This document shows, one piece after another, positions 20,630-43,109 of a stretch of DNA of 64,000 bases; positions within the stretch are counted from its first letter, which is position 1; every line of letters begins with the position of its first letter. The notes beneath the pieces were generated by a model. It did no database searches. It saw only the letters and a program-made list of their open reading frames with translations, and was not told where the DNA came from. A program made the position numbers and the translations under genes. The DNA is from Acidobacteriota bacterium (GTDB taxonomy: Bacteria; Acidobacteriota; Thermoanaerobaculia; Multivoradales; J023): NCBI GenBank assembly GCA_029263315.1, contig JAJCXR010000055.1, forward strand, positions 124,195 through 188,194. Reading direction: 5' to 3'.

Positions 20630-20639
20630 GGATGGAACG

Positions 20640-20852
20640 ATGAGCAACGATCCCGTATGGACCTTGATTTCGACGCTTTTCTACGCTGGGCTCGGCGTGG
20701 TTTTTTTCGGTTTTTCTTTTTGGGTGGTGACGATGATCGCCCCCTTCTCGGTACGTAAGGAGATCGAAGAGGATCAGAACATCGCCTTGGCCATCATCCT
20801 GGGCGCGGTGTTCATCGGCTTGTCGATCATCATCGCCGCCGCCATCACTTGA
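20640..20852 (+). CDS. DUF350-family small membrane protein (YjfL-like)
   Basis: 70-aa two-TM protein MSNDPVWTLISTLFYAGLGVVFFGFSFWVVTMIAPFSVRKEIEEDQNIALAIILGAVFIGLSIIIAAAIT. This is the DUF350 pattern (TM, ..R.EI..DN.A.AI.., TM). Confidence 0.6.
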   Translation: MSNDPVWTLISTLFYAGLGVVFFGFSFWVVTMIAPFSVRKEIEEDQNIALAIILGAVFIGLSIIIAAAIT

Positions 20853-28300: not shown

Positions 28301-30970
28301 GCCGGTGAGGTGATAGGCCATGGTCGTCTGCCCCTCGTCGTCGGCCCTGGGTACCAAAGTGAGGGCGACGGGCTGGGTGTTGACGCTGAAGCGGTGACGG
28401 CCGAATTTGATGACGTTGCTGCCGTCCTCGAAGATATCTTGCCGGTCGCGCAGGGCACGGGCGGCCTCTTCTTTCGTCGCCTTGAGGCGCGAGTCCAGCT
28501 CGTCGGCGCGGACGTTTTCTTTGATTTCCCGCAGCTCTGAGGCCAGGTCCCGCACCTTGGCCACCATGGCGTCGCCGACGAAATAGGTATTGAGATCGTC
28601 GGCCGACTCGAGGGCCGAGGCTCGGCGGGTGATGCCCTCGAGGATGCGTTGCGCCGCCTGCACCATGCGACCGGCCCGTCGCTGCCGGGCGTCGAGCAAG
28701 GATTGCTTGCGGGAGCTGAAAGCCTCGTAGACGTCCTCTCGCTTGGTGGCCAGTTGCTCGATGAACTGGTCGAGCTCGCCGAAGCGGCTTTCCAGCTCTT
28801 CCAGCTGCAGCATCAGCTTGGAGAGTTGCTCGTCGCATTTCTCCGGCGTATCGGCCATCGCCAAGGCGCCGCTCACCGCCTGGCTGAAAAGCTTGAACTG
28901 GGCGCCAAACTCGGCCACCCCTTCGGCCGACATCAGCTCCTTGCGCCGCGCCTCGAGCAGGGCGCGGCCGCGGTTGAGGTTGCCTAAAACCTCGGAAATG
29001 TCTTCCAAGATGGCGGTGCGAACCGTGGCGTCGTCGATGTCGAGACCACCCAAGACGTCGTTGAGCAGCTCGAGGCTGGTGGCCACGTGGTCGAGCCCGT
29101 CGCGGATGGGGACGGTCTCGGCGACCTTGGCGACCTCATCCACCGAGGCCACCAGCCCTTCGATCTTCTGGTGGTACGGCGCCAGGGCGGTGTCGCCTTC
29201 GAGAAAGGCCACCATTTGATCACTGAGCTCGGAAAAGCGCTCGACGAGGCGCTGCTCTAGGGCATCGACCCGCTCTTGATCGACGTAGCGCAACTCCCGC
29301 ACGGTGAGCAGGTGGCCCCGTTGGTGGCGCAACTCGGCGAGGGCATCGACGAAGTGGTCGACGGCGTCGCGGGACTGTCGCCGCAGGGTTTCGAAAAGCT
29401 CTTCCAGGGTGCCCTCGGCGGCGTCGGTGGCTTCCTGGGCGCGACGCTGAATGGCTTGGACCTTGGCGAATTCGTCGACGATGAGCTCGGCGGTGCCGTA
29501 GATCTCCTGCAGCTCGTCGGCCAAGTTGCCGACTTCGTCGCGATTCAACCAGTAGTAGGTGTCCTGGGCTCGCACCACACTGGCGATCAGATCCTCGTAG
29601 GTCTGCGTCGTCGGCTCTTGATCTTCGATGGTGCGGCAAATGGAGAGGGCGTCCGAGATGCCGCGCACCAGATCGGCATTGCCCACCTTCTCCAGAAAGG
29701 TCCCCTGGGACGGCGCCTGGGCGGCGTGCACGTCGCTCATGTAGGGGGTCTGCCAGACCTGCATCGGGTGGACCCGCGTCGGCTCGCTGGAGACGGCGCG
29801 GAAGATCACCAGGCGGCCGTCGTCGAAGAGGCTGAAGCCATTGCAGTAGATGGGGTTCTCCACCTGCTTGCGGATCATGTTGTACGACAACAGGATGCTC
29901 TGGCCGCTGTCGCGCTCGTGGAAGACGTAGAGCACATCTTCGCCATTGGGAGAGCGCACTGACTTGAGGAATTCCATCTGCTCGATGTTGCCCTCAAAGG
30001 TCTTGGTCTCACCGTTCTGCAGGTAGTAGCCGCCGGGAAAGATCAGGCCGTGGTCCTCTGGCAGCAGCAGACAGGCTTGGCCGATGGCGTCGATGCGATG
30101 CACCTTCTGGTTGCGGGTATTGAAGATCAGATAACGCCAGATGGTCTCGTTGTAGGGCAGGATCTTGAGCAGGATCAGGCTGCCCACCTTGGCGTAGTGG
30201 ACCTGCGCGTCATCGAGGCTCTGCTGCGCTTCGTCGACATCTTCGCTGTAGATGCCGAGGCCGTCCTCGGTGTTGTCCTCCACCTTGACGGTGAGGTCAC
30301 CGCCTACCGTTTCGACGAAGACTTCGTCGAGGATGTTGACGTGGGGATGCCGTCCGTGCACGTGATGCTGGCGGCCGGTCTCCTGCCACTCGAAGTCGTG
30401 GGAGGGCGGAAAGACATGGTCCCGCTCGCCGCGATTGTCGATGTAGGTAACCCGGCCCTGCGGGTCCACCGCCCAGCGGAAGACTTTGAAATCCGTCAGG
30501 TTGGCGCCGGTGCGGAAGACCGCCAGCAGCTTGCCTTCGGTGCGTCGGAGCTGCATCAGGCGAGCGTCTTTGTAGTACTTGTAGAGCTCTTGGAAGTCCC
30601 GCAGCAAGGTACGGTCGTTGAGGAAGTACTGCCGTGCGTCCGTGGCCACCGGCTCGAAAGAGAAGGTGTCGTCCTTCTCGACGAAACGGTGCAGGCTGAG
30701 CACGTCCTCCATGTGGGTCTCGGTCTTGAGCCCCAGAAAGACGTTGTAGCCGAAGAGCAAGAGCTCACCGACGGCTCGGATGTCCCGCGGCACACAGTTG
30801 TGCTCGGTGCGGATGCGCTCGTTGCCGATCAACGCCATCTCGGTGCCGCCGAAGAGCTCCAGGCGCTCGCCGTTGAGGCTGTTGGCCTTCTTGGCGAGCT
30901 TCTTGGAATGCTCCCCTAGGCGGCCCCGGAGAATCTCGTAGGTGCCGCGTTCGATGGTGTCGCTGCTCAT
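25307..30970 (-). CDS. Giant (1887 aa) multidomain protein with a single dynein/MoxR-type (AAA_5-like) AAA+ module in its C-terminal third
   Basis: Walker A LLLISPPGYGKTTLMEYI (about nt 27045-27080), Walker B NVLLYLDDIQ, sensor FAICMAGNP. The N-terminal ~430 aa are beta-rich (possibly a propeller). About 850 aa of helical/coiled-coil follow before the AAA+ domain; the C-terminal ~350 aa are helical with a Pro/Ala-rich linker. The stop lies 5 bp after the start of the upstream flotillin gene. Confidence 0.8.
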   Translation of the reverse strand: MSSDTIERGTYEILRGRLGEHSKKLAKKANSLNGERLELFGGTEMALIGNERIRTEHNCVPRDIRAVGELLLFGYNVFLGLKTETHMEDVLSLHRFVEKDDTFSFEPVATDARQYFLNDRTLLRDFQELYKYYKDARLMQLRRTEGKLLAVFRTGANLTDFKVFRWAVDPQGRVTYIDNRGERDHVFPPSHDFEWQETGRQHHVHGRHPHVNILDEVFVETVGGDLTVKVEDNTEDGLGIYSEDVDEAQQSLDDAQVHYAKVGSLILLKILPYNETIWRYLIFNTRNQKVHRIDAIGQACLLLPEDHGLIFPGGYYLQNGETKTFEGNIEQMEFLKSVRSPNGEDVLYVFHERDSGQSILLSYNMIRKQVENPIYCNGFSLFDDGRLVIFRAVSSEPTRVHPMQVWQTPYMSDVHAAQAPSQGTFLEKVGNADLVRGISDALSICRTIEDQEPTTQTYEDLIASVVRAQDTYYWLNRDEVGNLADELQEIYGTAELIVDEFAKVQAIQRRAQEATDAAEGTLEELFETLRRQSRDAVDHFVDALAELRHQRGHLLTVRELRYVDQERVDALEQRLVERFSELSDQMVAFLEGDTALAPYHQKIEGLVASVDEVAKVAETVPIRDGLDHVATSLELLNDVLGGLDIDDATVRTAILEDISEVLGNLNRGRALLEARRKELMSAEGVAEFGAQFKLFSQAVSGALAMADTPEKCDEQLSKLMLQLEELESRFGELDQFIEQLATKREDVYEAFSSRKQSLLDARQRRAGRMVQAAQRILEGITRRASALESADDLNTYFVGDAMVAKVRDLASELREIKENVRADELDSRLKATKEEAARALRDRQDIFEDGSNVIKFGRHRFSVNTQPVALTLVPRADDEGQTTMAYHLTGTDFYQPVNDEAFAATRDYWDQHLVSETAQVYRGEYLAASILFDAEEERAGLSLTALQQAAEEPGALLGLVRTYSAERYDEGYERGLHDADTVLILQQLIALYSNAGLLRFTPRARAAAVLYWAFFDEATQRATWHRRAVSLARLRTAFAHSPAIVTLAAELSEGIAAFHRQHSIELTPEDAHMAGGYLFEELCQDPVRLVISAEANKLLELFSEHLKNSRSAGELQRDLQELEGHLGQRFHLAKAWLGGFLASAGAASDDDVSQRAKELMQLAPAENEAVVQLISRDRIERSASEALAKAEVSGLLGQHPRIEQRTLSLRLDELLSRLAHFRQHRVPGFRRFQALRHRLLEQQRHALRLGEYKPQVMSSFVRNRLINEVYLPIIGDNLAKQMGALGDDKRTDQMGLLLLISPPGYGKTTLMEYIANRLGLVFVKVNGPALGHAVTSIDPLDAPNATARQEVEKINFALEMGNNVLLYLDDIQHTHPELLQKFISLCDAQRRIEGVWNGRTRTYDFKGKRFAICMAGNPYTESGDKFQIPDMLANRADTYNLGDILEGKDDVFALSYIENSLTSNAVLAPLTTRDPDDVFKLVEMARDGALQADQLSHGYSAMELEEILSVLRKLLRIQEVVLAINQQYILSAAQDDAYRTEPRFQLQGSYRNMNKLAEKVVAVMNDRELEALIDDHYIGEAQTLTSGAEHNLLKLAELRGTLTPEQEERWQEIKRGFARVQAMGGSDDDPAIRLLGQLGLVSDRLGEIGRGIDKAREAPQRDDGPLLQSLAGLVDPFLDKLQGNLEALAAQSQDSASPESGDSGIGDLLAPRLDTLIARLEALAKAAAPSKGKPAKAPPPAPDLSPLLERLDATFSELGEHLAKGVLQATQNLPPASGTVPASAPPQVPGTDLSPYLERLGSTLERLAEAPRGKEVVQSLTPGVHELLSRLSDAVNDQLMPVVKTLGQQSKGDRQMTHYLDRTLRNLDMMRDLVASLRKIDTRALAE

Positions 30971-30974
30971 CGCC

Positions 30975-33026
30975 TCAGGACTTGAAGAGGGCCGAGAGCT
31001 TTACATCTTCGACGCCCATGCGCTCGACCACTTCCGACAGCTGCTCGAGCTTGACCTGTTTGTCGCCTTCGGACTTGCTCGCCAATTGGGAGAGGAAGGC
31101 GGCCAGGGTGAGATTGCGCACATCGGCGCTGGAGGTGGCGGGACGGGTGAGCACGTCCTTGAGGTCGGCGGCAAAGCTGGAATCGCCGCTGAGGTAGTCG
31201 CCGAGCAGCTTCTGGCCGGTTTCGCTGCGATCGATGAAACCATCGATGGATTTGCTCATGCCGATGCTGTTGACCAGGCGATCGAAGAACATGCTGTCGC
31301 CGCCGACGATGTCGATCTTGGCGTTCTGCAGGCCCGTCGACAGCACACCGGCTTGCACCTCTGCCACTTTGCGGTGGGCGTCCACTTGTGCCAGGGCGAC
31401 ATCCTTCTCCATGGCCAGGCGCAAGCGAAATTCCTCGTGCTCCTGGCTGGCTTCGTCGAGGGCCTTCATGGCGTTGGCTTTCTCGGTCAGGCCCTCGGCT
31501 TCGCCCTTGAGCTTTTCGCGGATGGCTTCGGCTTCCGCCAAACCCATTTCCTTGAGCACCTTGGCTTCGATGAGCTGCATGCGCTCCTCGGCATCGACAT
31601 CCGCTTGTTTGACTTCCACCTCCGCCAGTCCGACCTTCTTGGTGGCGTCGGCATTGGCTTCTTTGACCCGCACTTGGGCCAAGCCGACCTTCTCGATGGC
31701 CTCGGCGTCGGCCTCTTTGACTTGGACCTCGGCCAAACCCCTGGCGGCGGTCTCCGCCTGCACACCTTCGGCCATTCGCATCTTGGCTTTGGCTTCCTTG
31801 TCGCTGGCTTCGAGGTGGGCTTCGGCGAGGATCAGCTGTTCGCGGCCCTTGTGCTTGGCGGCGGCTTCGGCGGCTTCGGCGGCCTTGATGTCCTTGACCA
31901 ACTGTTCTTCGGCGTGGGCTTCGGCGCCGATGATGGTCGCTTCTTTGGTCCGGTTGGCCTCTTCGACGAGGCGCAGCCGCTTGATGGCCTCCTCCTCCTC
32001 CGCCACCGTCTTCTCCACCGAGATGCGCTCGCGGATAACGCTGGCGATGTCCCGTTTCTGGACTTCCACTTCCTTGTCCTTGGCGATGGTCTGGAGCTCG
32101 GTCTCCCGTTCCCGGGAGATGACCTCGATCAGGCGTTCCTTTTCGACCCGCTCGGTCTCCACGGCCACCACCCGCTCGCGGTTCTTTTGGGCCACCTCCA
32201 CTTGACGCTTGAGGTTCTCCTCCTGGACGGCGATGTCCTCATCGGCCTTGATGCGCGCCGTCTCGAACTTGAGCCGTTCCTCGGCCTCGATTTTTTGTGT
32301 TTCCGCCTGCTCCCGGGCCCGGACCGACAGGATCTCCCGCTGCTGTTTGGCCTCGGCGTCGGATTTCTGACGCTCGAGCTCGAAGATGGCCTCCGCCGCT
32401 TCGACATCCTGCTTGGTGATCTGCTTCTTCTCGGTGTTCTGGAACTCGTTGGTGCGCACGTGCTCGATGGCCGTCAGCTCAGTGATCTTGCGGATACCCT
32501 GGGCATCGAGGATATTGTGCTCGTCGAGCTTTGAAATTGGCGTCTGCTCGAGGTAGTCGATGGCGCAGTCTTCGAGGGAATAGCCGTTGAGATCCTGGCC
32601 AATGACCTCGATGATCTCATCGCGAAACTCTTTCCGCTGGGTGTAGAGATCGACGAAATCCAGCTTCTTGCCCGCGGTTTTCAAAGCTTCCGAGAATTTG
32701 GCGGCGAAGAGGTGCTCCAGCGTTTTCTGATCCGAAGCGCGGGCGCAGCCGATGATCTGTGCCACCTTGATGACGTCTTCGGCGGTTTTGTTGACCCGCA
32801 CGAAGAAGGTCACTTTGATGTCGGCGCGGATGTTGTCGCGACAGATCAAGCCATCAGAGCCGCTGCGATCGATCTCGATGGTCTTGACCGAGATGTCCAT
32901 GAGCTCGGCTTTGTTGATCACCGGGACAACCAGGCCGCCGGTGAAGCTGACCGTCACCGTGCCCCTGACCACGTTGCTCAGAACCAATGCTTTGCCTTGT
33001 TCTACCTTGAGAATGCCGAATGCCAT
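30975..33026 (-). CDS. SPFH/band-7 flotillin-like protein (YqiK-like) with a long Glu/Ala-rich coiled-coil tail
   Basis: N-terminal membrane hairpin + SPFH domain (MAFGILKVEQGKALVLSNVVRGTV...). Extended EA-rich repeats (GLAEVQVKEADAEAIEKV / GLAQVRVKEANADATKKV / GLAEVEVKQADVDAEERM). Confidence 0.85.
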   Translation of the reverse strand: MAFGILKVEQGKALVLSNVVRGTVTVSFTGGLVVPVINKAELMDISVKTIEIDRSGSDGLICRDNIRADIKVTFFVRVNKTAEDVIKVAQIIGCARASDQKTLEHLFAAKFSEALKTAGKKLDFVDLYTQRKEFRDEIIEVIGQDLNGYSLEDCAIDYLEQTPISKLDEHNILDAQGIRKITELTAIEHVRTNEFQNTEKKQITKQDVEAAEAIFELERQKSDAEAKQQREILSVRAREQAETQKIEAEERLKFETARIKADEDIAVQEENLKRQVEVAQKNRERVVAVETERVEKERLIEVISRERETELQTIAKDKEVEVQKRDIASVIRERISVEKTVAEEEEAIKRLRLVEEANRTKEATIIGAEAHAEEQLVKDIKAAEAAEAAAKHKGREQLILAEAHLEASDKEAKAKMRMAEGVQAETAARGLAEVQVKEADAEAIEKVGLAQVRVKEANADATKKVGLAEVEVKQADVDAEERMQLIEAKVLKEMGLAEAEAIREKLKGEAEGLTEKANAMKALDEASQEHEEFRLRLAMEKDVALAQVDAHRKVAEVQAGVLSTGLQNAKIDIVGGDSMFFDRLVNSIGMSKSIDGFIDRSETGQKLLGDYLSGDSSFAADLKDVLTRPATSSADVRNLTLAAFLSQLASKSEGDKQVKLEQLSEVVERMGVEDVKLSALFKS

Positions 33027-33052
33027 GGAATCAATACCTCCAGAAAAAGGGC

Positions 33053-33817
33053 TCAGAGATCGCGGACGAGCGGCGACGGCGCGGCCGTCTCGACATCGGC
33101 GCGCGGTTGAGCGACGAAAAAAACTTGGGTCTGAGGGTCGTAGTCGAAGATCAATGCCTTGTCGCCGCGACGCAAGGTGTTGGCGTCTCGACTGCGGGCT
33201 TGGATGAGAATCGTCGAGGCGTCATTGTCCACCACTTCGGCCTGGCCGAAGGTTCCGTCGACCCTCAGCGTGGTGACGGTGCAGACCTTGCCCACCAGGT
33301 CGGAATGCTGGGTCACCGGCGGTAGGGCGAAGACCTTTTTCAGCGGACGCAGGCTGATCGAGGTGGCCACCAAGGAAGCTCCGACGGAGCCGACTCCCAC
33401 AGCCCAAGGCACCAAGGCCACCATCGAGGCTGCCAGATCGAGGTGGGAAATCCACGACGATCCGAAGTAGGACCCCAGCCAGCCGAAGACCGTGAAGGTG
33501 GTGAGGATGATGATGCTCGGCACCCCTCCCAGACCGAGGCAACCATCGTGGTCGCCCATGCCATCGGCCCCTTCGGCCAAACCCTCGGCGGCGCCCTCCG
33601 CGGCCCCTTCGATCATGCCTTCGGCGGCCCCGCCGATGGAGTCCGTCGCGCCACCCAAGGACTCGGCGGCTCCGCCGACGGAATCAAAGACGCCGTCCAG
33701 GATCTCTAGATCCAGAATGCCGAAAAGAAACGTCAGCCAGTAGAAAGCCACCAGGATCAGCAGCCCGCTGAAAATGGCGGTGGGTAGCGAGAAGGCGGCT
33801 TCGAGGAACGCGCTCAT
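33053..33817 (-). CDS. NfeD-like membrane protein (YqiJ-like) with C-terminal OB-fold
   Basis: N-terminal TM helices, a Gly/Ala-rich middle, and a C-terminal NfeD OB-fold-like segment GKVCTVTTLRVDGTFGQAEVVDNDASTILIQARSRD..LRRGDKALIFDYD. Sits 26 bp upstream of the flotillin gene, which is the classic yqiJ-yqiK arrangement. Confidence 0.65.
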   Translation of the reverse strand: MSAFLEAAFSLPTAIFSGLLILVAFYWLTFLFGILDLEILDGVFDSVGGAAESLGGATDSIGGAAEGMIEGAAEGAAEGLAEGADGMGDHDGCLGLGGVPSIIILTTFTVFGWLGSYFGSSWISHLDLAASMVALVPWAVGVGSVGASLVATSISLRPLKKVFALPPVTQHSDLVGKVCTVTTLRVDGTFGQAEVVDNDASTILIQARSRDANTLRRGDKALIFDYDPQTQVFFVAQPRADVETAAPSPLVRDL

Positions 33818-33980: not shown

Positions 33981-36440
33981 TCAATAACCCCAGCGCGGCC
34001 ACAGGGCTTCCGTGCCGGTGATCTTGCCCAGGCCCTCGGTGTACATGCGCGCCGTCTCGACCAAACCCGGGGTGATGATGTGCTGGCCGCGGTGGTCCAT
34101 CTGGAAGAGATGTTTCCAGGTCTCGCGGGTGCCGAGCTCGATGCGCCGCCGGGTCACCTTGTCCCCCAACCGACGGAGGCGTAGCAGCATGGCGTTGAGA
34201 CCGCAGGTGGTGAAGTACGAGCCGATTTCGACCTCCTGCAGCCAGCTCTTCAGCGCCTCGGAGGAGTCGAAAGAGTGGACTTGGGACGCCAAGTCGCGAT
34301 GTGAGGCGGCCTTGGCCGTGGTGGCCAAGGCGTGGGGTCGCAGGTCGACAAAACCGTTGTTGACGATGGTCCAATCGCGGTAGGTGGTCATCGGAACGCC
34401 GATGGCGGTGGCCCGTTCTCGCCACAGGTCGCTCACCTCGTGTCGGCGTACGATGGCGGCGTCGAGGGGGGCAACATAGGGCCCCACCAACATGCGATCC
34501 CGCCGGCGTCCGGTATCGTGGAAGAGGATGGGGATACCGAGGGAGGTGATGCTTTGCAGATAGCGTCCGATACGGGTGGCCAAACGGGCTAAAAAACGTT
34601 CCCGCCCCGGCTGCCGGAGGCCATGGGTGTGCGGGTCGTAGCCCAAGAGCTGGCCGGCGGATTCCATCGAATCGGCCCGACAGAGATTGTAGAAACCGCA
34701 GGCCAGCTCGTCGACGCCCAGGGTCTGCAAATCCTCGAAGCAGGGACGATGGGTTTCGTGCCACAGGAAGTCGTCGATGTCCGTCAAGGCATCGATCAGC
34801 TGTTGCTCGGTGTAAAGATGAAACTTGCTGGCCAATTGCCGTAGGCGCAACAGGAGCAACAGCAAGCCGAGCTCGTGGAGCCTCGCCTGGTGGGTGGCGG
34901 AGCCCAGGGCTTGATAAGCCTGGAGGGCAAAGGGCCCATGGTGGGCCCTCTGCAATTGCGGGTAGTTGTCCAACAGGCGCAGGGCGAAATAGGAGTTCTC
35001 GGTCTCGGTGTAATAAGCGATTTTTTCCTGGAACCAGTCCCGACGCCGTTCTGGACCAAAGAGGGCATGGCGCACCAAGACCATGGCCAGCTCTTCGGGG
35101 ATGGCGACCTTCATGACGTTGTACAGGGCGATGCAATTGGCGACCGAGAACAGGCCGTTTTCGCCGGAGCGAATTGCGGCGGCGACCATCAGCTCCTTGC
35201 CCTGCCCGAACTGCAACAGATCCTTGTCGGCTTTCGGGGCTTGGAGGCCTTGGATCGGCAGCTCCTGGGTGACGTCGTCGTTCTCGGGGAACGGGGCGCC
35301 GGCCTCGGGCGACGGGTTCTCCTGTTCCGGCGCTCCAGCCGCCGCGCTCTGGTCCCCGTTCCCTGGGGCGGCATCGACGGTTGCCTCGGACGCTTCCGCC
35401 GGCTTCTCGAAATCCAGCGGCAGCTCCTGGCAGGGATAGAGGAGGATATTGGGTTGGTCGAGGTCGGCGGGCCGCAGATGGGGTTTGTCGAGGCCCCGGA
35501 GCCGTTGCTCGACGGCACCCTTGATGGCCGGCGTGGCGGGAAGCTGACAACGCAACTCGACGGCGTCGATGCCGATGGCCGCGGCGGTGACCAGGACGTC
35601 GAAGCCGTGGTCGATGTAGAGTTGGGTCAGCTCGTCGGCAAAATATTTCTTGTCCACCAGCTTGTCACCGAGGGCGCTGTGGGCAAAGCCGAGGCGGATC
35701 TCTGCCTGTCCGCCGTCGACCCGGTACATGCCACCGACCGCGGTGGTGTGGGCGATCACCACATGGCGAGCATGGCGTTGCTGGATGACGGCCAGGCCTC
35801 GGATGAAGGTTTGCAGGTAAGCCTTCTTGAGGCGCTGATTCTGCACGTGATCCATGCCGTGTTCCGCCGCCAAACGATCAATCGCCACCAGCGTATAGGT
35901 GGCGACGCTGGGTAGTGGAATGGCCACCACCACGGCGTGCAACAGGCGGGCATCGAGGCCTTCGATGTAGCTGAGGAAAGGGCAGGGCTGGGCGGCGAAG
36001 TAGGCGTCGAGGGCTACCCCCAGGTCAAAGCTTTCGCCTTTGGCCACCCGCCGTTCGGCGACGTGGGTCGGCAAATCTTGAGGGATTTCGAGCTGCAAGA
36101 GGGAGAACTTCAAATCGATGCGGCCGTCGATGCGGAAATGGCGCCGAGGTTTGATCTTTTCGACGGAAAACTCACCATCGAAGGCCAGGTAGAGCCGCTG
36201 CACGAACTTGACGATTTCTTTCTCAGACATGCCGGTGGCGTGGATTTCCCCCTGCAAGGGGCTCTGGCGCAAGCTCTTGGACATCAAGATCATGCGGCAG
36301 AGCTCCATCACCGAAGCGCCTCCCACGGCACCGGTGCCACCAAAAACGACGAAGTACACCGGCTCGTTGCCGCCGCCGGGCAATAGGCGGGTGGCGAGAA
36401 TGTGCTCGAGGGACTCGAACTCGTGATAAACGGTTCTCAT
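33981..36440 (-). CDS. Hypothetical 819-aa two-domain protein; N-terminus has a GGTGAVGG Rossmann-type dinucleotide-binding loop
   Basis: YFVVFGGTGAVGGASVMEL near the N-terminus. Acidic/Pro-rich linker (EKPAEASEATVDAAPGNGDQSAAAGAPEQENPSPEAGAP). C-terminal ~430-aa domain of unknown type. The overlapping 543-aa ORF in another frame is R/P/G-rich and judged spurious. Confidence 0.6.
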   Translation of the reverse strand: MRTVYHEFESLEHILATRLLPGGGNEPVYFVVFGGTGAVGGASVMELCRMILMSKSLRQSPLQGEIHATGMSEKEIVKFVQRLYLAFDGEFSVEKIKPRRHFRIDGRIDLKFSLLQLEIPQDLPTHVAERRVAKGESFDLGVALDAYFAAQPCPFLSYIEGLDARLLHAVVVAIPLPSVATYTLVAIDRLAAEHGMDHVQNQRLKKAYLQTFIRGLAVIQQRHARHVVIAHTTAVGGMYRVDGGQAEIRLGFAHSALGDKLVDKKYFADELTQLYIDHGFDVLVTAAAIGIDAVELRCQLPATPAIKGAVEQRLRGLDKPHLRPADLDQPNILLYPCQELPLDFEKPAEASEATVDAAPGNGDQSAAAGAPEQENPSPEAGAPFPENDDVTQELPIQGLQAPKADKDLLQFGQGKELMVAAAIRSGENGLFSVANCIALYNVMKVAIPEELAMVLVRHALFGPERRRDWFQEKIAYYTETENSYFALRLLDNYPQLQRAHHGPFALQAYQALGSATHQARLHELGLLLLLLRLRQLASKFHLYTEQQLIDALTDIDDFLWHETHRPCFEDLQTLGVDELACGFYNLCRADSMESAGQLLGYDPHTHGLRQPGRERFLARLATRIGRYLQSITSLGIPILFHDTGRRRDRMLVGPYVAPLDAAIVRRHEVSDLWRERATAIGVPMTTYRDWTIVNNGFVDLRPHALATTAKAASHRDLASQVHSFDSSEALKSWLQEVEIGSYFTTCGLNAMLLRLRRLGDKVTRRRIELGTRETWKHLFQMDHRGQHIITPGLVETARMYTEGLGKITGTEALWPRWGY

Positions 36441-36649: not shown

Positions 36650-37933
36650 TCAGCAGAGGGGAGTGTCCTCGCCGAGGGGCAAAAGGGGGGCGCTGGGGGT
36701 CAAGGGAGCGTCCTCCGGCTCGCCGACGCTCCAGGTGGCGTCGAGCTCTGCCAAGTAGGCGCGCACCGACCCGGCGACGCTAGCTGCGATCTGGCCCGCC
36801 ACCTGATCGGCATCACTGCGCAGACGCCAAGGCAAGCCTCGATCATCGAGGTCGCAGAGCAGATCCTTGCGGACCTCGAGGCCGAGGCAGCTGGGTCGCA
36901 CCTTGGGATCAAGACGGTACATCTCCACCAGCTCGTTGCGATGGGTGGCCTGGAAGCGACTGATCTTGGCGTAGGCTTTGCGGGCTTCGGCGAACAGGGT
37001 TTCGCTGCCGGGGGGGGCTTCCCGATAGCGGTGCAAGTAGGCCCGGAGGCGTTCGCAGGGGGCAGAGCGGCGAACCACGTCGAGCAAAAGCTGCCAAATC
37101 CGTTGGTAGGCCAGCTGATCGCTGGTCTCCGGGTGGGCAGCGGTGAAGCGACGCCGCAGGAAGCGGAAATAAAACCAGACCTGGGCACGGATCTCCACCG
37201 AGCCTTCGGGCATCAAATAGGGATAGTCGAGGGCGGTGGGCCAATCCAGGTCCTCGAGATCGAGGGCGATGCGATAGCTCAGCTTGCGGTGCGTCGTTTG
37301 CTCCCCGAGGATATGTGGGAACAGCGGATCAAAGATGAATGGAGGCATCTCCGATGTCTCCTGATAGGAGAGAGAGCGGGTCACCAGGCTGATTTCGGGC
37401 CGTGAGGTGCCGGTGCGATTCACCTGATCGTAGGTGTGAACCGCCAAGGTCAGGCGCCGGTCGGCGAAATGCTGCACCAGATTCTGAGACATGGTGTCGT
37501 AATAGCGCGCCAACAGGTCATGGCGCGCCTCTTCGGAGAGTAAATGCTGCAACGGCGGGAAGATGGAGTGGCGTAGCAGGTAATTCTCGCCGATCGACGA
37601 AATACCCGGGAAGCGGCCGAAATCGAGCACCACACGGGCCAACGAAACTCGCAGGTAGGAGTCTTGTCCGAGCTCTTTGGCGAGGTGGCGAGCCACCAGA
37701 TTGGCACCCCAATCGCGCTCGCGGGCATAGGCGTCACGGACTTCCGGTAGGTCGATCACTTGGTCGCTGCGTTCGCCGAAGAGATGACGCGGGAAGCCAT
37801 CCCCATCATGGATGGTGAAGACCAGCGGTCCGTCGGGGTCGGTGGCCGTTTGGGGTTGGCTAGACACCGGAATCCTCTCCAGCGGCTCCATCGCATCGAC
37901 GATCTTGGGGCGGGGCGATTCGGTAACAGTCAT
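36650..37933 (-). CDS. Hypothetical protein, N-formylglutamate amidohydrolase (FGase)-like N-terminal domain with a ~150-aa C-terminal extension
   Basis: LVFTIHDGDGFPRHL, ARVVLDFGRFPG and LTLAVHTYD align by eye to the FGase motifs (..PHAG.., ..IDLNRP.., ..WDAHS..). Weak call. Confidence 0.35.
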   Translation of the reverse strand: MTVTESPRPKIVDAMEPLERIPVSSQPQTATDPDGPLVFTIHDGDGFPRHLFGERSDQVIDLPEVRDAYARERDWGANLVARHLAKELGQDSYLRVSLARVVLDFGRFPGISSIGENYLLRHSIFPPLQHLLSEEARHDLLARYYDTMSQNLVQHFADRRLTLAVHTYDQVNRTGTSRPEISLVTRSLSYQETSEMPPFIFDPLFPHILGEQTTHRKLSYRIALDLEDLDWPTALDYPYLMPEGSVEIRAQVWFYFRFLRRRFTAAHPETSDQLAYQRIWQLLLDVVRRSAPCERLRAYLHRYREAPPGSETLFAEARKAYAKISRFQATHRNELVEMYRLDPKVRPSCLGLEVRKDLLCDLDDRGLPWRLRSDADQVAGQIAASVAGSVRAYLAELDATWSVGEPEDAPLTPSAPLLPLGEDTPLC

Positions 37934-38159
37934 TGGGTAAGGGATTCCTGAGGCAGTTCTTGGGGGTGGGGGCGATATGTTGCGATCCCACTGTCGGGGC
38001 GATTGTCAAGGGGGATCCAATAAGCTCAAATGCCTGTCGACGTGCGCATTGTATCCAGGAAAGGGGACCGATGGAAGACCGACCGGTTGGACGGAAAAGG
38101 TCTGTCGCCAGGCGCAAGGGTTTACGCCAACCGTCGAAGACGATCGGTCACGCCAGCCG

Positions 38160-39377
38160 TCAATGTAACCAGCCGCTCTCTACGGTGTCTTCGGCCGATC
38201 GGTTAGCCCGCCGCCCGGCCAACACGTCGACCGCTTCGGCGATACCGTCGAGGGTGAGCTCGTACATGGGGAAGAGCTGACGGATGAGGCGCACGCTGGG
38301 GGCCGCCCAAATGCGCTGCGGCTCCGGGTTGAGCCACAGGGAGCTCGGGCAGCGCTCGCGAAAACGGCGTAACCATTCGAGACCGGTGGTGCGGTTGTGA
38401 TGGAAGTAATCGATGGCGCCGCCGGCATGGGTGAGCTCGTAGGGGCTCATCCAGGCGTCGCCGACGAAAAGAACGGACCACGTGGTGTCGATCCGCCGTA
38501 GGACATCCGAGGTCGCCTCCCCTTTGCCCAGGTAGATGTCGCTGTAGAGGCGTTCATAGGGGCAGTTGTGGAAGAAGAGGTGCTCGAAGTGGTGAAAGTG
38601 GTTGGCGGCATGGGCGGCGCTGAACAGGCGTTCCGAAAGGTCGGCGTGGGGATCCATTGAGCCGCCGACATCGATCAGCAGGAGCAGCTTGATGCGGTTG
38701 CGGCGCGGTGGCGCAAACACCAGATCGATATCGCCGCCGTTACGGGCGCTGACATCGATGGTGGCGTCGATATCCAGCTCCTCCAGGCCGTCGTCTTTAC
38801 CCAGACGTCGCAGCCGGCGCAGCGCCATGCCGATCTGCCGGGTGTCGAGAACGCGGTCGCTGCGCAAATTACGAAATCGACGGTCGCTGGCCACCTGAAC
38901 TGCCGAACGCCCACCTCCCGGGCCGCCGATGCGGACGCCGGTGGGATGGGTGCCGCCGTGGCCGAAGGGCGACGTGCCCCCGGTGCCGATCCACCGACTG
39001 CCCCCGTCATGGCGCTCGTCCTGCTCGCCGCGCCGTTCCTCGAAACGGCGGCGCAATTCGTCGAGGTCCAAGGCCTCGAGGGCGGCCCGCTCTTCGTCGC
39101 TCAGCTCTCGGGGCAGGATGGGATCGGCCAGCCACTGCAAAAGCTCATCGTCGATGTCGAATTGAGCTTCGATGTCGCGAAAGAACTCTGAAAATGCCTG
39201 GTCGAAGCGGTCGTAGTCGGTTTCCCTCTTGATCAACAGGGCGCGGCTCAGATGGTAGAAAACGCTGAGGTCGCTGCGGGCATGGCCCTCCGCCAAGGCG
39301 CGGATCAGCGGCAGCCATTCGCTGAGGGACACTTTCAGGCCCCGGCCCCGCAAGTGAAAGAGGAAATCCGTGAACAC
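38160..39377 (-). CDS. VWA-domain protein of the CoxE type (MoxR partner)
   Basis: CoxE-type N-terminus (MFTDFLFHLRGRGLKVSLSEWLPLIRAL...FDQAF). VWA core LLLLIDVGGSMDP (MIDAS DxGxS). 8 bp downstream of the MoxR gene. Confidence 0.8.
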   Translation of the reverse strand: MFTDFLFHLRGRGLKVSLSEWLPLIRALAEGHARSDLSVFYHLSRALLIKRETDYDRFDQAFSEFFRDIEAQFDIDDELLQWLADPILPRELSDEERAALEALDLDELRRRFEERRGEQDERHDGGSRWIGTGGTSPFGHGGTHPTGVRIGGPGGGRSAVQVASDRRFRNLRSDRVLDTRQIGMALRRLRRLGKDDGLEELDIDATIDVSARNGGDIDLVFAPPRRNRIKLLLLIDVGGSMDPHADLSERLFSAAHAANHFHHFEHLFFHNCPYERLYSDIYLGKGEATSDVLRRIDTTWSVLFVGDAWMSPYELTHAGGAIDYFHHNRTTGLEWLRRFRERCPSSLWLNPEPQRIWAAPSVRLIRQLFPMYELTLDGIAEAVDVLAGRRANRSAEDTVESGWLH

Positions 39378-39384
39378 GTCGGGC

Positions 39385-40218
39385 TCAGCTCACCGGACGT
39401 CGTCGTTGGCGGGGGCCGCTGATGGCCTCGAGGTCTTGCTCCCGCTTCAACAGGACGCCGAGGAAAGGCAGCTTCTCCTGGAGCGTTTCGACAGCGATAC
39501 CGGCCCGCCGTAGGGCGGCGATCCAATCGATCAGCTCGCTGGTGGACGGACGTTTGCGGATCTCGGTCTGCTCCCGCAGCCAGTAGAAGGCGATCAGCAC
39601 TTGCCGCACCAGCTCTTCTTCCACCTCCGGATGATGCACCCGTACGATGTCGTTCATCATCGCCTTGTCGGGAAACGAGATGAAGTGGAAGACGCAGCGC
39701 CGCAGGAAGGCATCGGGCAATTCTTTCTCGTTGTTCGAGGTTACCAAGACGATGGGTCGCTGCTCGGCGGTGACCGTCTCGCCGGTTTCGTCGATGTGGA
39801 AGCTCATTTGATCGAGCTCGTGTAGGAGGTCGTTGGGGAACTCCATATCCGCCTTGTCGATCTCGTCGATCAGCAAGACGCGGCGCCGGTTGTCGCGGAA
39901 GGATTGGCCGAGGGGGCCGAGCTTGATGTATTGGCTGATATCGCTGATGTCACGATCGTCGAAGCGGGCATCGTTCAAGCGTTGGACGGTGTCGTAGACG
40001 TAAAGGCCGTCCCGCGCCTTGCTGGTGGATTTGACGTTCCAGCTTAGCAACTCCAGGTCGAGATCTTGAGCGATGGCTTCGGCCAGCCTGGTCTTGCCGG
40101 TGCCGGGCTCGCCTTTGATCAGTAGCGGTTTTTCGAGGGCGATGGCGACGTTGACGGCATCGCGGAGCTCTGCTGAAGCGAGGTAGCTGTCGGTGCCGGT
40201 GAATTGCATGAAATTCAT
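39385..40218 (-). CDS. MoxR-family AAA+ ATPase (CoxD/NorQ-like, 277 aa)
   Basis: Walker A LLIKGEPGTGKTRLAEAIA, Walker B RVLLIDEIDKA, sensor IVLVTSNNEKELPDAFLRRC. Confidence 0.85.
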   Translation of the reverse strand: MNFMQFTGTDSYLASAELRDAVNVAIALEKPLLIKGEPGTGKTRLAEAIAQDLDLELLSWNVKSTSKARDGLYVYDTVQRLNDARFDDRDISDISQYIKLGPLGQSFRDNRRRVLLIDEIDKADMEFPNDLLHELDQMSFHIDETGETVTAEQRPIVLVTSNNEKELPDAFLRRCVFHFISFPDKAMMNDIVRVHHPEVEEELVRQVLIAFYWLREQTEIRKRPSTSELIDWIAALRRAGIAVETLQEKLPFLGVLLKREQDLEAISGPRQRRRPVS

Positions 40219-41750
40219 AGATTCTCCTTGGGGGCCCCCGACTGTACCTGAATTCCGTCCTGATCCGAATCCGGTCGCAGCACCAAGGCCAGGGTGCCGG
40301 TGGCCTCACCTTGGAGAAGGGCCGGCGGCTCGGAAGTTGCGCTGTCTTGCAACTGAAGGATGAACTGCGAGCCCTTGCCGAGGGCGCTTTCGACTTTGAT
40401 GTGCAAGCCCAAGCGCTGGCTGAGCAGGCGGCAGATGGCCAAACCCAAGCCGCTGCTGTGCTCAGAGGATTCGCTGCCATCGGTGTCGAGATTCTGCTCG
40501 TAGGGCTCGAAGATATGTTCCAGTCGGTCGGCGGGGATGCCCGGGCCGGTGTCTTGGATCACCACCGCCAAGGGACGCAGCGTTTGGCGCTCGCCCCGCA
40601 GCCGTAGGGTGACGCCGCCTTGTTGGGTGAACTTGATGGCGTTGCCCAGCAGGTTGATGAGGATCTGCTTGAAGCGCCGCCGGTCGGTCTCGATGGGAAG
40701 GAGCTTGGCCGGGCTTTCGAGATGCAAGGAAAGGCCCTTCTCGCGAGCCAAGGGGTGCAACTCGTGCAATGTCTCGCTGGCCAGCTCGGCGAGGTCGAAG
40801 CTGGACAAGGTGAGGTCGAGCCGATCGGCTTCGAGGCTGGAGAGATCCAGCACCTGATTGATCACTCCGAGGAGGTGGTGCCCATTGCCGCTGATCCGCG
40901 AGATGTAATGCAGCTGTTTATCATCGAGGTTCTGTTGGCGATTCTTACCGAGCAGATTGGCAAAGCCGATGACGGCGTTCAACGGCGTGCGCATCTCGTG
41001 GCTCAGGTGGGCGATGAAGCGACTCTTTCCCCGGCTGACGGTGATCGCCTTGCTGGCCAGCTCTTGGAGCTGTAGCTGTTGGCTCTGGCTTTTCTGATGC
41101 ATGGTGCCTAGAGCTTCCAGTTGCCGCCGGTGGACGATGTGCAGGACGACGCTCAGCAGGGTGGCAGTGAGCATGGCGAAGGCGAAATGGCTCCATTGCT
41201 GTGGGGCTGGTGCAAGAAGCCATAGGGCGGCCCACGTGGTGATGACGCAGAGGGCGCCGCCGGTGAACCAGCGGTGGTCCAGCAGAACAAAAGCGATGCC
41301 GACGAGCATCAGCAGAAAGTTGGTGGTCTGTTTGGGATCCGACAGCAAGTAGAGATGGGCGGCCGAATTGACCACCGGAATGGCGACCAGGGCGGTCATC
41401 GTCAGATGGCCCTTACCGGGTGCCACCGGTTGACTGCGCAATCGCCATGCGAGAATCAGGGTAACCGTCGCCGAGACGACGGCGAGAGTCGTCATGATCA
41501 GACGGGGACCGGTCGGCAGAACCAGAACGTGGCTGGTGGCGAGGAGCGCGTAAAGAACCGCCATGCCTAGGCTGACCGGTTGCAAGGCGGTGGCAACTTG
41601 TCGATCGAGGAAACTTGCCAGGGAGTGATTTACTGTCACGGTGCTCTTTTGGACATGCTGGGGAAAATGAGACGGCCACAAAGATGACCGCATGATGTAA
41701 GTATAGCCCTTGCGGAGGATGTTGTGCCCACATGACGCAAGAGGACGCAT
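40215..41750 (-). CDS. Sensor histidine kinase with an N-terminal ~6-7 TM sensing domain; no response regulator in the window
   Basis: HisKA H-box FIAHLSHEMRTPLNAVIGF and HATPase_c G-boxes (LGNAIKFT, DTGPGI, GSGLGLAICR). Its stop overlaps the MoxR start (ATGA). The true start may be an internal Met (the ORF 5' end overlaps the divergent methyltransferase). Confidence 0.8.
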   Translation of the reverse strand: MRPLASCGHNILRKGYTYIMRSSLWPSHFPQHVQKSTVTVNHSLASFLDRQVATALQPVSLGMAVLYALLATSHVLVLPTGPRLIMTTLAVVSATVTLILAWRLRSQPVAPGKGHLTMTALVAIPVVNSAAHLYLLSDPKQTTNFLLMLVGIAFVLLDHRWFTGGALCVITTWAALWLLAPAPQQWSHFAFAMLTATLLSVVLHIVHRRQLEALGTMHQKSQSQQLQLQELASKAITVSRGKSRFIAHLSHEMRTPLNAVIGFANLLGKNRQQNLDDKQLHYISRISGNGHHLLGVINQVLDLSSLEADRLDLTLSSFDLAELASETLHELHPLAREKGLSLHLESPAKLLPIETDRRRFKQILINLLGNAIKFTQQGGVTLRLRGERQTLRPLAVVIQDTGPGIPADRLEHIFEPYEQNLDTDGSESSEHSSGLGLAICRLLSQRLGLHIKVESALGKGSQFILQLQDSATSEPPALLQGEATGTLALVLRPDSDQDGIQVQSGAPKENL

Positions 41751-41872
41751 TTCTTGATAGGGACTGCGTGTTCCATGGGCGGCTAGCGCCGCAATATGCT
41801 AGGAGAGAGGGGAGGCAAAGCGACGTGTCAGCCTTGAATTTTTCGCAGCGACAAGGTGATCTTAGGGAACGT

Positions 41873-43030: not shown

Positions 43031-43109
<79 letters not shown>

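What the first reader, a model, noticed from the sequence alone, without database searches (positions are those of the whole stretch)
36650..41750. Histidine kinase, MoxR AAA+, CoxE-type VWA and FGase-like protein in one co-directional block
The kinase stop overlaps the MoxR start (ATGA). MoxR and the VWA gene are 8 bp apart. After a 226-bp spacer comes a 427-aa protein whose N-terminal half resembles N-formylglutamate amidohydrolase-type zinc hydrolases. MoxR/VWA pairs are chaperone-like switches that insert metals or remodel a specific client; here the client is not obvious. The kinase has an unusual all-membrane sensor domain and no response regulator nearby. The FGase-like protein and/or the 819-aa protein may be the clients or effectors, reminiscent of MoxR-VWA 'ternary' conflict systems.
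Basis: partly seen in the sequence, partly recalled or inferred. Interest (0 to 1): 0.6.

Follow-up and report, generated by a model that had tools for sequence, protein, structure and literature searches.

The report
MoxR–VWA pair beside unrelated enzyme genes
The four genes are real and correctly named, but the ATPase/VWA chaperone pair is a widespread stand-alone housekeeping module that sits beside the hydrolase-like gene only in some members of one bacterial class, so this is an ordinary mosaic neighbourhood and not a new multi-gene system.

Summary
On the minus strand lie a membrane histidine kinase (HisKA+HATPase_c), a 277-aa MoxR-type AAA+ ATPase (AAA_5), a 405-aa VWA_CoxE protein and a 427-aa FGase-fold protein. 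The ATGA overlap and the 226-bp spacer are as described; the AAA–VWA gap is 7 bp, not 8.

The AAA–VWA pair is very conserved: 56–79% identity in metagenomes and 55%/42% in Acinetobacter, Aeromonas and Ralstonia. In 38 loci anchored on VWA orthologues the ATPase is almost always upstream. None of about 24 informative loci has the FGase-like gene, the 819-aa gene or the kinase.

Adjacency to FGase-like/819 is patchy and confined to one Thermoanaerobaculia (Acidobacteriota) clade. The kinase is kept only in near relatives. No defining feature of MoxR–vWA ternary conflict systems is met.

The 819-aa protein belongs to a rare family with no Pfam model and an SDR-like Rossmann fold. It associates loosely with the FGase-like gene (8 of 20 loci) and with a downstream 254-aa/SPFH-like/DUF3686 trio (10 of 25 loci).

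Best reading: several independent modules lying side by side. The client of the chaperone pair is still unknown.

The parts
40215..41750 (-). Orphan membrane histidine kinase. It has 5-6 predicted TM helices followed by HisKA and HATPase_c, and no receiver domain. The true start may be about 37 codons downstream, near 41639.
   Evidence: Pfam HisKA 62.6 bits and HATPase_c 86.2 bits. Hydropathy profile and lack of any REC domain in the window. 70% identical orthologue with the same 4-bp overlap in L123 only. Absent next to AAA-VWA in every other locus.
39385..40218 (-). MoxR-type (AAA_5, CoxD-like) AAA+ ATPase of 277 aa. Motifs read from the sequence: Walker A GEPGTGKT, Walker B LLIDEID, sensor-1 TSNN, RR arginine finger.
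   Evidence: Pfam AAA 47.2 bits and AAA_5 42.6 bits. Motifs read from the translation. Best PDB sequence hit is midasin AAA. 55-57% identical orthologues are annotated 'MoxR family ATPase' or 'AAA family ATPase' in Azospirillum and Acinetobacter. 68-80% identical and directly upstream of the VWA gene in metagenomic loci.
38160..39377 (-). CoxE-type VWA partner protein of 405 aa. It has an N-terminal helical region, a Gly-rich segment, and a VWA domain with an invariant variant MIDAS motif, DVGGSMD...T...GDA.
   Evidence: Pfam VWA_CoxE 41.2 bits. 8000 or more homologues, the best 120 of them at 69% identity or more. Alignment showing the invariant motif, Acinetobacter included.
36650..37933 (-). 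FGase-fold (N-formylglutamate amidohydrolase superfamily) putative metal-dependent amidohydrolase of 427 aa, with a helical stretch (~246-341) that looks like an insertion in the fold. It is not a HutG orthologue.
   Evidence: Family hits to PF05013. AlphaFold model with pLDDT 89.3. Foldseek matches to 2odf and 2q7s with probability 1.0. Invariant H42 D43 R73 D74 R100 D104 R107 E353 K356 D357, and near-invariant H166.
33981..36440 (-). 819-aa protein of a rare family with no Pfam model. The N-terminal part has an SDR-like Rossmann fold (GGTGAVGG at 34-41). There is a disordered insert at 348-402, a conserved S425...Y440xxxK444 motif, and a C-terminal half with no recognisable relative.
25307..33817 (-). 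Downstream co-directional trio: a 254-aa protein (33053-33817), a 683-aa weakly SPFH/flotillin-like protein (30975-33026), and a 1887-aa DUF3686+DUF7902+AAA protein (25307-30970). This is a separate conserved module that often follows the 819-aa gene.
   Evidence: Pfam DUF3686 at E=2e-213, plus DUF7902 and AAA. Weak FloT hit of 17 bits. The trio lies downstream of 819-aa orthologues in about 10 of 25 loci and in L123 and L124.

Best explanation
The block is a side-by-side arrangement of independently inherited modules on the chromosome of a Thermoanaerobaculia-type acidobacterium. It is not one dedicated system.

Module 1 is a two-gene MoxR-type AAA+/CoxE-type VWA chaperone pair. By analogy with CoxD/CoxE and NorQ/NorD, the ATPase should form a hexameric ring. 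The VWA protein should dock on that ring and use its MIDAS face to hold an acidic patch on a client protein. ATP hydrolysis would then remodel the client, typically to allow cofactor or metal insertion. These mechanistic steps are inferred, not shown. The pair is very conserved and occurs with ever-changing neighbours from Acidobacteriota to Gammaproteobacteria. Its client is therefore most likely a conserved housekeeping protein encoded elsewhere, not the adjacent genes.

In this genus only, an orphan multi-pass membrane histidine kinase has been fused into the pair's operon by a 4-bp overlap. That implies co-expression. It need not imply a signalling link.

Module 2 is the FGase-fold hydrolase. 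All catalytic-signature positions of its family are conserved, so it is probably an active metal-dependent N-deacylase or deformylase for an unknown small amide.

Module 3 is the 819-aa SDR-fold protein, probably an NAD(P)-dependent oxidoreductase, epimerase or dehydratase-type enzyme. Modules 2 and 3 are loosely linked to each other. In two lineages a galactokinase-like GHMP kinase lies between them, which hints at a shared small-molecule, possibly sugar or amino-sugar, pathway.

Module 4 is the 254-aa/SPFH-like/DUF3686-AAA trio.
For: Shown:
- Domain and fold assignments.
- AAA-VWA is a strict pair. The ATPase is upstream of the VWA gene in nearly all VWA-anchored loci that have upstream sequence. 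Flanking genes differ completely: SIR2/DUF3014, BNR, PIN/sulfatase, trpB/prmB.
- None of about 24 informative VWA-anchored loci carries FGase-like, 819 or the kinase.
- The pair is 70-79% identical across the class and 55%/42% identical to proteobacterial orthologues.
- In the VWA tree, loci adjacent to FGase-like/819 are interleaved with non-adjacent ones inside one clade.
- The kinase is kept only in L123.
- Among about 25 close 819 orthologues, FGase-like is upstream in 8 of 20 informative loci, AAA-VWA is nearby in 4, and the trio is downstream in about 10.
- An FGase-like+819 pair occurs alone in L125.
- FGase-like occurs alone in L004, L128, L129 and L130.
- Distant 819 homologues in Bacteroidia sit beside ftsQAZ with none of these partners.
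- A GHMP kinase lies between FGase-like and 819 in L002/L008 and near them in L028.
- The window's other genes are housekeeping: enolase, mfd, SurA/PpiC, rsmH.

From the literature: mechanism of MoxR/VWA pairs (PMC9976466; PMC7159879; PMC3893208).
Against: - AAA-VWA lies next to FGase-like and/or 819 in at least three separate Thermoanaerobaculia lineages: the window genus, L002/L008, and the Multivoradales loci L022 and L023. This is more than chance if the events are independent, so some functional coupling in this class cannot be excluded.
- All genes of the block are co-directional with short spacers.
- No terminator or promoter signal above background separates them.
- Neighbourhood counts rest on tblastn against fragmentary MAG contigs and on at most 80 and 31 sampled loci.
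- No expression or interaction data exist.
Confidence: 0.65

Rival explanations
1. In Thermoanaerobaculia the MoxR/VWA pair is a dedicated maturation or activation machine for the adjacent FGase-fold metallohydrolase (for example, metal loading) and/or the 819-aa SDR-like protein. In this genus the membrane kinase would be the sensor.
For: - The order AAA-VWA-FGase-like-819 recurs in the window, L123, L124, L002/L008, L017 and L022. AAA-VWA lies 6.5 kb upstream of 819 in L023.
- FGase-family enzymes depend on a metal, and known MoxR/VWA pairs insert metals.
- All genes are co-directional.
Against: - None of about 24 VWA-anchored loci outside these lineages has either candidate client.
- The pair next to FGase-like/819 is the ordinary orthologue, not a specialised paralogue.
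- The pair exists in Proteobacteria, where no homologue of the 819-aa family turned up.
- FGase-like+819 occur without the pair (L125, L007, L009, L010).
- A 226-bp spacer separates the VWA and FGase-like genes.
- The FGase-like protein diverges much faster than AAA/VWA (49% against 72-78% identity to L002).
Confidence: 0.15
2. The block is a MoxR-vWA 'ternary'-type conflict or defence system. The kinase or the FGase-like protein would be the third component, and the large downstream proteins would be effectors.
For: - The arrangement superficially resembles the pattern of a third gene followed by MoxR and vWA.
- The VWA protein has weak NCBIfam similarity to SAV_2336_NTERM (41 bits against a 200-bit cut-off) and to MadB/MadC models, all far below cut-off.
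Against: - There are no PADLOC hits beyond generic P-loop matches and no PHROG hits.
- bpMoxR scores 18 bits against a cut-off of 27.
- No effector is fused to the vWA protein.
- The vWA protein is extremely conserved, whereas ternary-system vWA proteins evolve rapidly.
- The gene in the third-component position is not conserved.
- The genomic context is core housekeeping, not a defence island.
Confidence: 0.03
3. The pair is a true CoxD/CoxE orthologue that matures a molybdenum hydroxylase (CO dehydrogenase family) encoded elsewhere in the genome.
For: - The VWA_CoxE Pfam hit and the CoxD-like size and AAA_5 type.
- CoxD belongs to the MoxR family.
Against: - There are no coxMSL-like genes in the 64 kb or next to any of the sampled orthologous pairs.
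- A tblastn search of plasmids with the VWA protein found only 16 records, none from a carboxidotroph.
- The pair is present in Acinetobacter baumannii in a trpB/aroC context.
Confidence: 0.07

Closest known systems
CoxD/CoxE of Oligotropha carboxidovorans (MoxR APE2220 subfamily plus CoxE-type VWA)
   Same: - A ~280-aa single-module AAA+ of the AAA_5/MoxR type.
- It is immediately followed by a ~400-aa protein with an N-terminal region and a C-terminal VWA_CoxE domain.
- The presumed ATP-driven client remodelling is the same.
   Different: - It is not in a cox cluster, and no Mo-hydroxylase genes are nearby.
- It belongs to a different, much more widespread orthologous group (Acidobacteriota, Alpha-, Beta- and Gammaproteobacteria).
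- The MIDAS motif reads DxGxS instead of DxSxS.
- The client is unknown.
NorQ/NorD and CbbQ/CbbO (MoxR CGN subfamily with VWA partners)
   Same: The working principle is the same: a hexameric MoxR ring, one VWA adaptor, and client binding through MIDAS (PMC9976466).
   Different: - The VWA partner here is much smaller (405 aa against ~640-770 aa).
- No nor or RuBisCO genes are present.
- Sequence similarity is limited to the generic AAA core.
MoxR-vWA ternary conflict systems (Kaur, Burroughs, Iyer and Aravind 2020)
   Same: A MoxR-vWA core preceded by another gene on the same strand. According to that paper, these systems derive from CoxD-CoxE-like pairs.
   Different: - There is no VMAP, iSTAND, FtsH or beta-propeller third component.
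- There are no effector domains on the vWA protein.
- Conservation is slow, of the housekeeping type.
- The copy sits in a core-genome context.
N-formylglutamate amidohydrolase family (PF05013; structures 2q7s and 2odf)
   Same: The same fold, and the same conserved signature positions: H-D near the N-terminus, RxxxDxxR, a central His, and a C-terminal Glu.
   Different: - It is about 150 aa longer, with a helical stretch (~246-341) that looks like an insertion.
- It has only 11-14% identity to the solved structures.
- There is no histidine-utilisation (hut) context.
- The window protein itself falls below Pfam detection.
Short-chain dehydrogenase/reductase superfamily (classical and extended SDRs)
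   Same: The N-terminal Rossmann fold, a Gly-rich dinucleotide-binding motif, and a conserved S...YxxxK.
   Different: - It is about 800 aa, with a ~55-residue disordered insert and a ~370-aa C-terminal region with no known relative.
- It has no sequence-level link to any SDR.
- The family is tiny: 102 cluster representatives in 1.84 billion proteins.

Membership tests
MoxR family AAA+ ATPase | Single AAA+ module of the AAA_3/AAA_5 type with intact Walker A, Walker B, sensor 1 and arginine finger | tested here: met
   AAA_5 scores 42.6 bits against a cut-off of 22. GEPGTGKT, LLIDEID, TSNN and RR are read from the translation. Orthologues are annotated 'MoxR family ATPase'.
MoxR family AAA+ ATPase | Genomic pairing with a VWA-domain protein | tested here: met
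   The VWA gene lies 7 nt downstream. The pairing is kept in nearly all of the 38 VWA-anchored loci that have upstream sequence.
MoxR family AAA+ ATPase | Helix-2 insert and pre-sensor-1 hairpin (AAA+ clade 7) | not tested
CoxD/CoxE CO-dehydrogenase maturation system | VWA partner belongs to the VWA_CoxE family | tested here: met
   PF05762 scores 41.2 bits against 26.4, although only over profile positions 6-97 of 222.
CoxD/CoxE CO-dehydrogenase maturation system | Location in a cox cluster or next to a Mo-hydroxylase (coxMSL) | tested here: not met
   Neighbours in the window and in the orthologous loci carry no such genes.
MoxR-vWA ternary conflict systems | Conserved third core component (VMAP, iSTAND, FtsH or beta-propeller) in fixed order upstream of MoxR | tested here: not met
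   The upstream gene is a histidine kinase kept only in L123. Other loci have a divergent HExxH protein or unrelated genes there.
MoxR-vWA ternary conflict systems | vWA protein fused to variable C-terminal effector domains | tested here: not met
   The protein is 405 aa and ends with the VWA domain. Its length is constant at 396-415 aa in the 120 best homologues.
MoxR-vWA ternary conflict systems | Rapid divergence of the vWA component | tested here: not met
   Identity is 69-85% across the 120 best clusters, and 42% to Proteobacteria.
MoxR-vWA ternary conflict systems | MoxR of the ternary-system type (Pfam bpMoxR or relatives) | tested here: not met
   PF20030 scores 18.1 bits against a cut-off of 27. 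PADLOC gives only P-loop-level hits.
N-formylglutamate amidohydrolase family (PF05013) | Match to the family profile | tested here: inconclusive
   The window protein gives no hit at E<=1. However, 29 of 37 family members match, and four that I checked exceed the gathering score.
N-formylglutamate amidohydrolase family (PF05013) | FGase fold | tested here: met
   Foldseek top hits are 2odf and 2q7s, with probability 1.00 and target-normalised TM-score 0.60-0.69.
N-formylglutamate amidohydrolase family (PF05013) | HutG function: hut operon context and N-formylglutamate as substrate | tested here: not met
   No hutH, hutU or hutI-type genes are in any of the examined loci. The substrate cannot be tested with these tools.
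Two-component sensor histidine kinase | HisKA phospho-acceptor domain plus HATPase_c catalytic domain | tested here: met
Two-component sensor histidine kinase | Cognate response regulator encoded nearby | tested here: not met
   tblastn with CheY, PhoB, NtrC-REC and NarL found no receiver domain in the 64-kb window at E<0.01.
SDR superfamily (819-aa protein) | Rossmann fold with Gly-rich motif, and catalytic Ser/Tyr/Lys | tested here: inconclusive
SPFH/flotillin (683-aa neighbour) | Match to SPFH/FloT profiles | tested here: inconclusive
   The only hit is NCBIfam FloT at 17.3 bits against a cut-off of 700. There is no Pfam or PDB sequence hit.

The most novel reading that the evidence does not exclude
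In one subclade of Thermoanaerobaculia, the otherwise housekeeping MoxR/CoxE-type pair has been recruited to activate or metal-load the adjacent FGase-fold hydrolase or the orphan 819-aa SDR-fold enzyme. In this genus that would happen under a membrane histidine kinase that signals without a response regulator. This would give the first identified client for this very widespread but unstudied MoxR/VWA orthologous group.
Probability: 0.12. Interest if true: 0.55.

Novelty: new member of a known kind. Interest (0 to 1): 0.3.

Why it matters
As a proposed multi-gene system, the block does not stand up, so it matters little. Two by-products are modestly useful.

First, this CoxD/CoxE-like pair defines a very conserved orthologous group. 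It reaches from Acidobacteriota to Acinetobacter, Aeromonas and Ralstonia. I found no client for it in the searched literature.

Second, the 819-aa protein represents a rare, isolated ~800-aa family with no Pfam model. It has an SDR-like fold and is found in Acidobacteriota, Bacteroidia, Planctomycetota, Myxococcota and Gemmatimonadota MAGs, plus a few MAGs labelled as archaea. In Thermoanaerobaculia it is repeatedly neighboured by an FGase-fold hydrolase and by an SPFH-like/DUF3686 giant-AAA trio.

Either could be a starting point for function discovery. Neither is surprising in kind.

Tried and rejected
- PADLOC and PHROGs gave nothing beyond P-loop noise, so a defence or phage origin was rejected.
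- An Rfam scan of 30-44 kb found only a tRNA at 43036-43109. No riboswitch or leader lies in the 226-bp or 209-bp spacers.
- The promoter and terminator scan was not above shuffled expectation (3 against 1.5, and 11 against 7). Transcription units could not be defined.
- Full-text searches for 'DUF3686', 'PF12458', FGase plus MoxR, and MadB/MadC plus AAA/VWA found nothing relevant. The origin of the NCBIfam MadB/MadC names could not be traced, and those hits are far below cut-off (107 against 475 bits; 24 against 600 bits).
- Profile searches of PDB sequences with the FGase-like and 819-aa families gave nothing. Only fold comparison worked.
- My greedy ORF calling in the high-GC loci picked spurious antisense ORFs. 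I relied on tblastn tables instead.
- I tested whether the kinase's membrane domain is related to the ~450-490-aa protein that lies upstream of AAA-VWA in other genomes. It is not.
- The afdb50 fold library was unavailable.

Full report
**What is there**

Between 25.3 and 41.75 kb, eight co-directional minus-strand ORFs fill the region:
- a 511-aa kinase at 40215-41750
- a 277-aa AAA+ at 39385-40218
- a 405-aa VWA protein at 38160-39377
- a 427-aa protein at 36650-37933
- an 819-aa protein at 33981-36440
- a 254-aa protein at 33053-33817
- a 683-aa protein at 30975-33026
- a 1887-aa protein at 25307-30970

Pfam gives these hits, all above the gathering scores:
- HisKA and HATPase_c for the kinase
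- AAA and AAA_5 for the ATPase
- VWA_CoxE for the VWA protein
- DUF3686, DUF7902 and AAA for the 1887-aa protein

The 427-, 819-, 254- and 683-aa proteins give no Pfam hit.

The sequence confirms the ATGA stop/start overlap of kinase and ATPase. The 226-bp spacer before the 427-aa gene follows from the coordinates. The kinase has 5-6 hydrophobic segments in residues 52-208. No receiver domain is detectable anywhere in the 64 kb. The rest of the window is core chromosome: enolase, mfd, SurA/PpiC, rsmH, a spermidine-synthase-like gene and an M20 peptidase.

**The FGase-like call**

- The window protein is invisible to PF05013 even at E<=1.
- Its family is about 232 detectable cluster representatives, mostly Acidobacteriota, Myxococcota and Alphaproteobacteria MAGs.
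- The family matches FGase in 29 of 37 aligned members.
- Four members that I checked exceed the gathering score, at 32-34 against 28.9 bits, over residues ~32-237.
- An AlphaFold model (pLDDT 89.3, pTM 0.88) hits the two FGase-family crystal structures first: 2odf and 2q7s, probability 1.00, target-normalised TM-score 0.60-0.69.
- These positions are invariant in the family: H42-D43, R73-D74, R100/D104/R107 and E353/K356/D357. H166 is near-invariant. From my own knowledge of the family, they correspond to its signature positions. I infer an active metal-dependent amidohydrolase.
- The alignments to those structures run along almost the whole chain, and residues ~246-341 form a helical stretch that looks like an insertion in the fold.
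- No examined locus has a hut context, so it is not a HutG orthologue.

**The MoxR/VWA pair**

The ATPase has intact Walker A and B motifs, sensor 1 and arginine residues. Its orthologues at 55-57% identity in Azospirillum and Acinetobacter are annotated 'MoxR family ATPase' or 'AAA family ATPase'.

The VWA protein belongs to a very large and very conserved group. There are at least 8000 homologues, and the best 120 are 69-85% identical with lengths of 396-415 aa. Identity is about 42% in Paracoccus, Ralstonia, Aeromonas and Acinetobacter. Its MIDAS motif is an invariant variant, DVGGSMD...T...GDA.

I anchored 38 loci on VWA orthologues: 7 through exact-protein look-ups and 31 from a metagenome scan.
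- tblastn finds the ATPase directly upstream in essentially every locus with upstream sequence. In a few loci another gene is inserted between them.
- None of about 24 loci with at least 1.3 kb downstream contains the FGase-like gene, the 819-aa gene, the kinase, or the SPFH-like and DUF3686 genes.
- Flanking genes differ completely between loci: SIR2 and DUF3014; BNR sialidase-like; PIN toxins with a sulfatase; trpB, prmB and aroC in Acinetobacter.

The pair therefore behaves as a self-contained housekeeping module.

**How conserved is the block?**

- Near relatives keep everything. L123 (85% identity for the FGase-like protein) has methyltransferase / kinase-AAA-VWA-FGase-like-818-261-683-DUF3686, with the same 4-bp kinase/AAA overlap.
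- L124 (78%) keeps everything from AAA onward, but its contig ends before the kinase position.
- A more distant acidobacterial MAG (L002, the same place as L008) keeps AAA (78%), VWA (72%), FGase-like (49%) and 830 aa (61%). It has a galactokinase-like GHMP kinase inserted, and it has neither the kinase nor the downstream trio.

I fetched 80 genome loci anchored on homologues of the 819-aa protein and searched them with all window proteins. Among about 25 close orthologues (48% identity or more):
- FGase-like lies upstream in 8 of 20 informative loci.
- AAA-VWA lies nearby in 4 (L008, L017, L022, L023).
- The 254/683/DUF3686 trio lies downstream in about 10.
- The kinase is present in none.

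Further points:
- All loci with AAA-VWA next to FGase-like/819 belong to Thermoanaerobaculia or to unclassified Acidobacteriota. Multivoradales is an order of that class.
- In a neighbour-joining tree of VWA proteins, these loci fall in one clade, interleaved with loci that lack the adjacency. The window's nearest non-congeneric orthologues are among the non-adjacent ones.
- FGase-like+819 occur as a bare pair in L125.
- FGase-like genes occur alone in L004, L128, L129 and L130.
- Homologues of the 819-aa protein at 30-37% identity in Bacteroidia and other phyla have none of these neighbours. In Bacteroidia the gene lies after ftsQ-ftsA-ftsZ.

**The 819-aa protein**

- It has no Pfam, NCBIfam, PHROG or PDB sequence match.
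- The AlphaFold model has pLDDT 82.
- Foldseek gives classical and extended SDRs: a PKS thioester reductase, UDP-GlcNAc 4,6-dehydratase and UDP-galactose 4-epimerase.
- GGTGAVGG at 34-41 is invariant.
- A YxxxK at 440-444 (100% and 97% conserved) follows the invariant S425 and S432 at SDR-like spacing. I could not verify the three-dimensional equivalence.
- A full HMMER scan of 1.84 billion cluster representatives found only 102 hits. Many are fragments, and none is an ordinary SDR. The family is rare and isolated.

**Mechanism**

From the literature, MoxR rings bind one VWA adaptor, and the adaptor's MIDAS face holds the client while ATP hydrolysis remodels it for cofactor insertion (NorQ/NorD, PMC9976466). 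CoxD/CoxE is the closest architectural analogue, and CoxD is a MoxR of the APE2220 subfamily (PMC3893208). Kaur et al. derive the conflict-type ternary systems from such pairs (PMC7159879).

For this locus I infer the same chaperone action on a client encoded elsewhere. The kinase is a genus-specific operon passenger or regulator. FGase-like (a deacylase) and 819 (an NAD(P)-dependent enzyme), with the GHMP kinase seen in two lineages, may share a small-molecule pathway. That step is speculative.

**Comparison with ternary conflict systems**

Every defining feature that I could test fails:
- There is no conserved third component.
- No effector is fused to the vWA protein.
- The vWA protein evolves slowly.
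- bpMoxR is below threshold.
- PADLOC gives no support.
- The context is core genome.

**Verdict**

The domain calls are right. The client and conflict-system ideas are not supported. This is a new member of a known kind (a CoxD/CoxE-like MoxR-VWA pair) in a mosaic neighbourhood, and its interest is low to moderate.

Noticed in passing
window 33981-36440 (-); loci L005-L084: The 819-aa protein defines a rare, isolated ~750-840-aa family: 102 cluster representatives in 1.84 billion proteins, and no Pfam model. It has an SDR-like N-terminal fold and an unrecognisable C-terminal half. It is found in Acidobacteriota, Bacteroidia, Planctomycetota, Myxococcota and Gemmatimonadota MAGs, plus a few MAGs labelled as archaea.
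   Followed up: partly
window 25307-33817 (-); L005-L007, L010-L012, L016, L023, L025, L123, L124: A trio made of a 254-aa protein, a 683-aa weakly flotillin-like protein and a 1887-aa DUF3686+DUF7902+AAA protein is conserved as a unit. It follows the 819-aa gene in about 10 of 25 loci. I found no literature on DUF3686/PF12458.
   Followed up: partly
L002 6296-7732 (-), L022 4912-6387 (-), L023 1012-2505 (-), L088 5758-7110 (-), L120: In several Thermoanaerobaculia, a divergently transcribed ~450-490-aa protein lies directly upstream of the AAA-VWA pair. It has an N-terminal membrane anchor and an HExxH motif (weak Peptidase_MA_2 and SprT-like hits). In the window the kinase occupies that position. 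This protein could be a better client candidate than FGase-like or 819.
   Followed up: partly
L002 11255-12538; L028 about 6182: A galactokinase-like GHMP kinase lies between the FGase-like gene and the 819-aa gene in L002 (the same place as L008). A homologue also lies in the 5-kb stretch between those two genes in L028. This hints at a shared sugar or small-molecule pathway.
   Followed up: no
window 38160-39377 (-), residues 236-242: The MIDAS motif of this VWA orthologous group reads DVGGSMD, with Gly in place of the first Ser of DxSxS. It is invariant from the window to Acinetobacter.
   Followed up: partly
window 41639-41750 and 41732-42532: The longest kinase ORF overlaps the divergent methyltransferase ORF by 19 bp. 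The closest orthologue aligns only from residue 38, so the real kinase start is probably downstream, at M20 or at V38 (GTG).
   Followed up: partly
window 43036-43109 (-): A tRNA gene (Rfam RF00005, 65 bits) lies between the methyltransferase and enolase genes.
   Followed up: no
window 18477-22507 (+): Two adjacent DUF4178 proteins, one with an N-terminal zinc ribbon, are followed by a 552-aa protein with a spermidine-synthase domain.
   Followed up: no
L029-L075 (Bacteroidia loci): Distant homologues of the 819-aa protein in Bacteroidia sit in a fixed synteny, next to a branched-chain aminotransferase on one side and ftsZ-ftsA-ftsQ on the other. Sometimes a single-domain receiver protein lies just upstream.
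   Followed up: no
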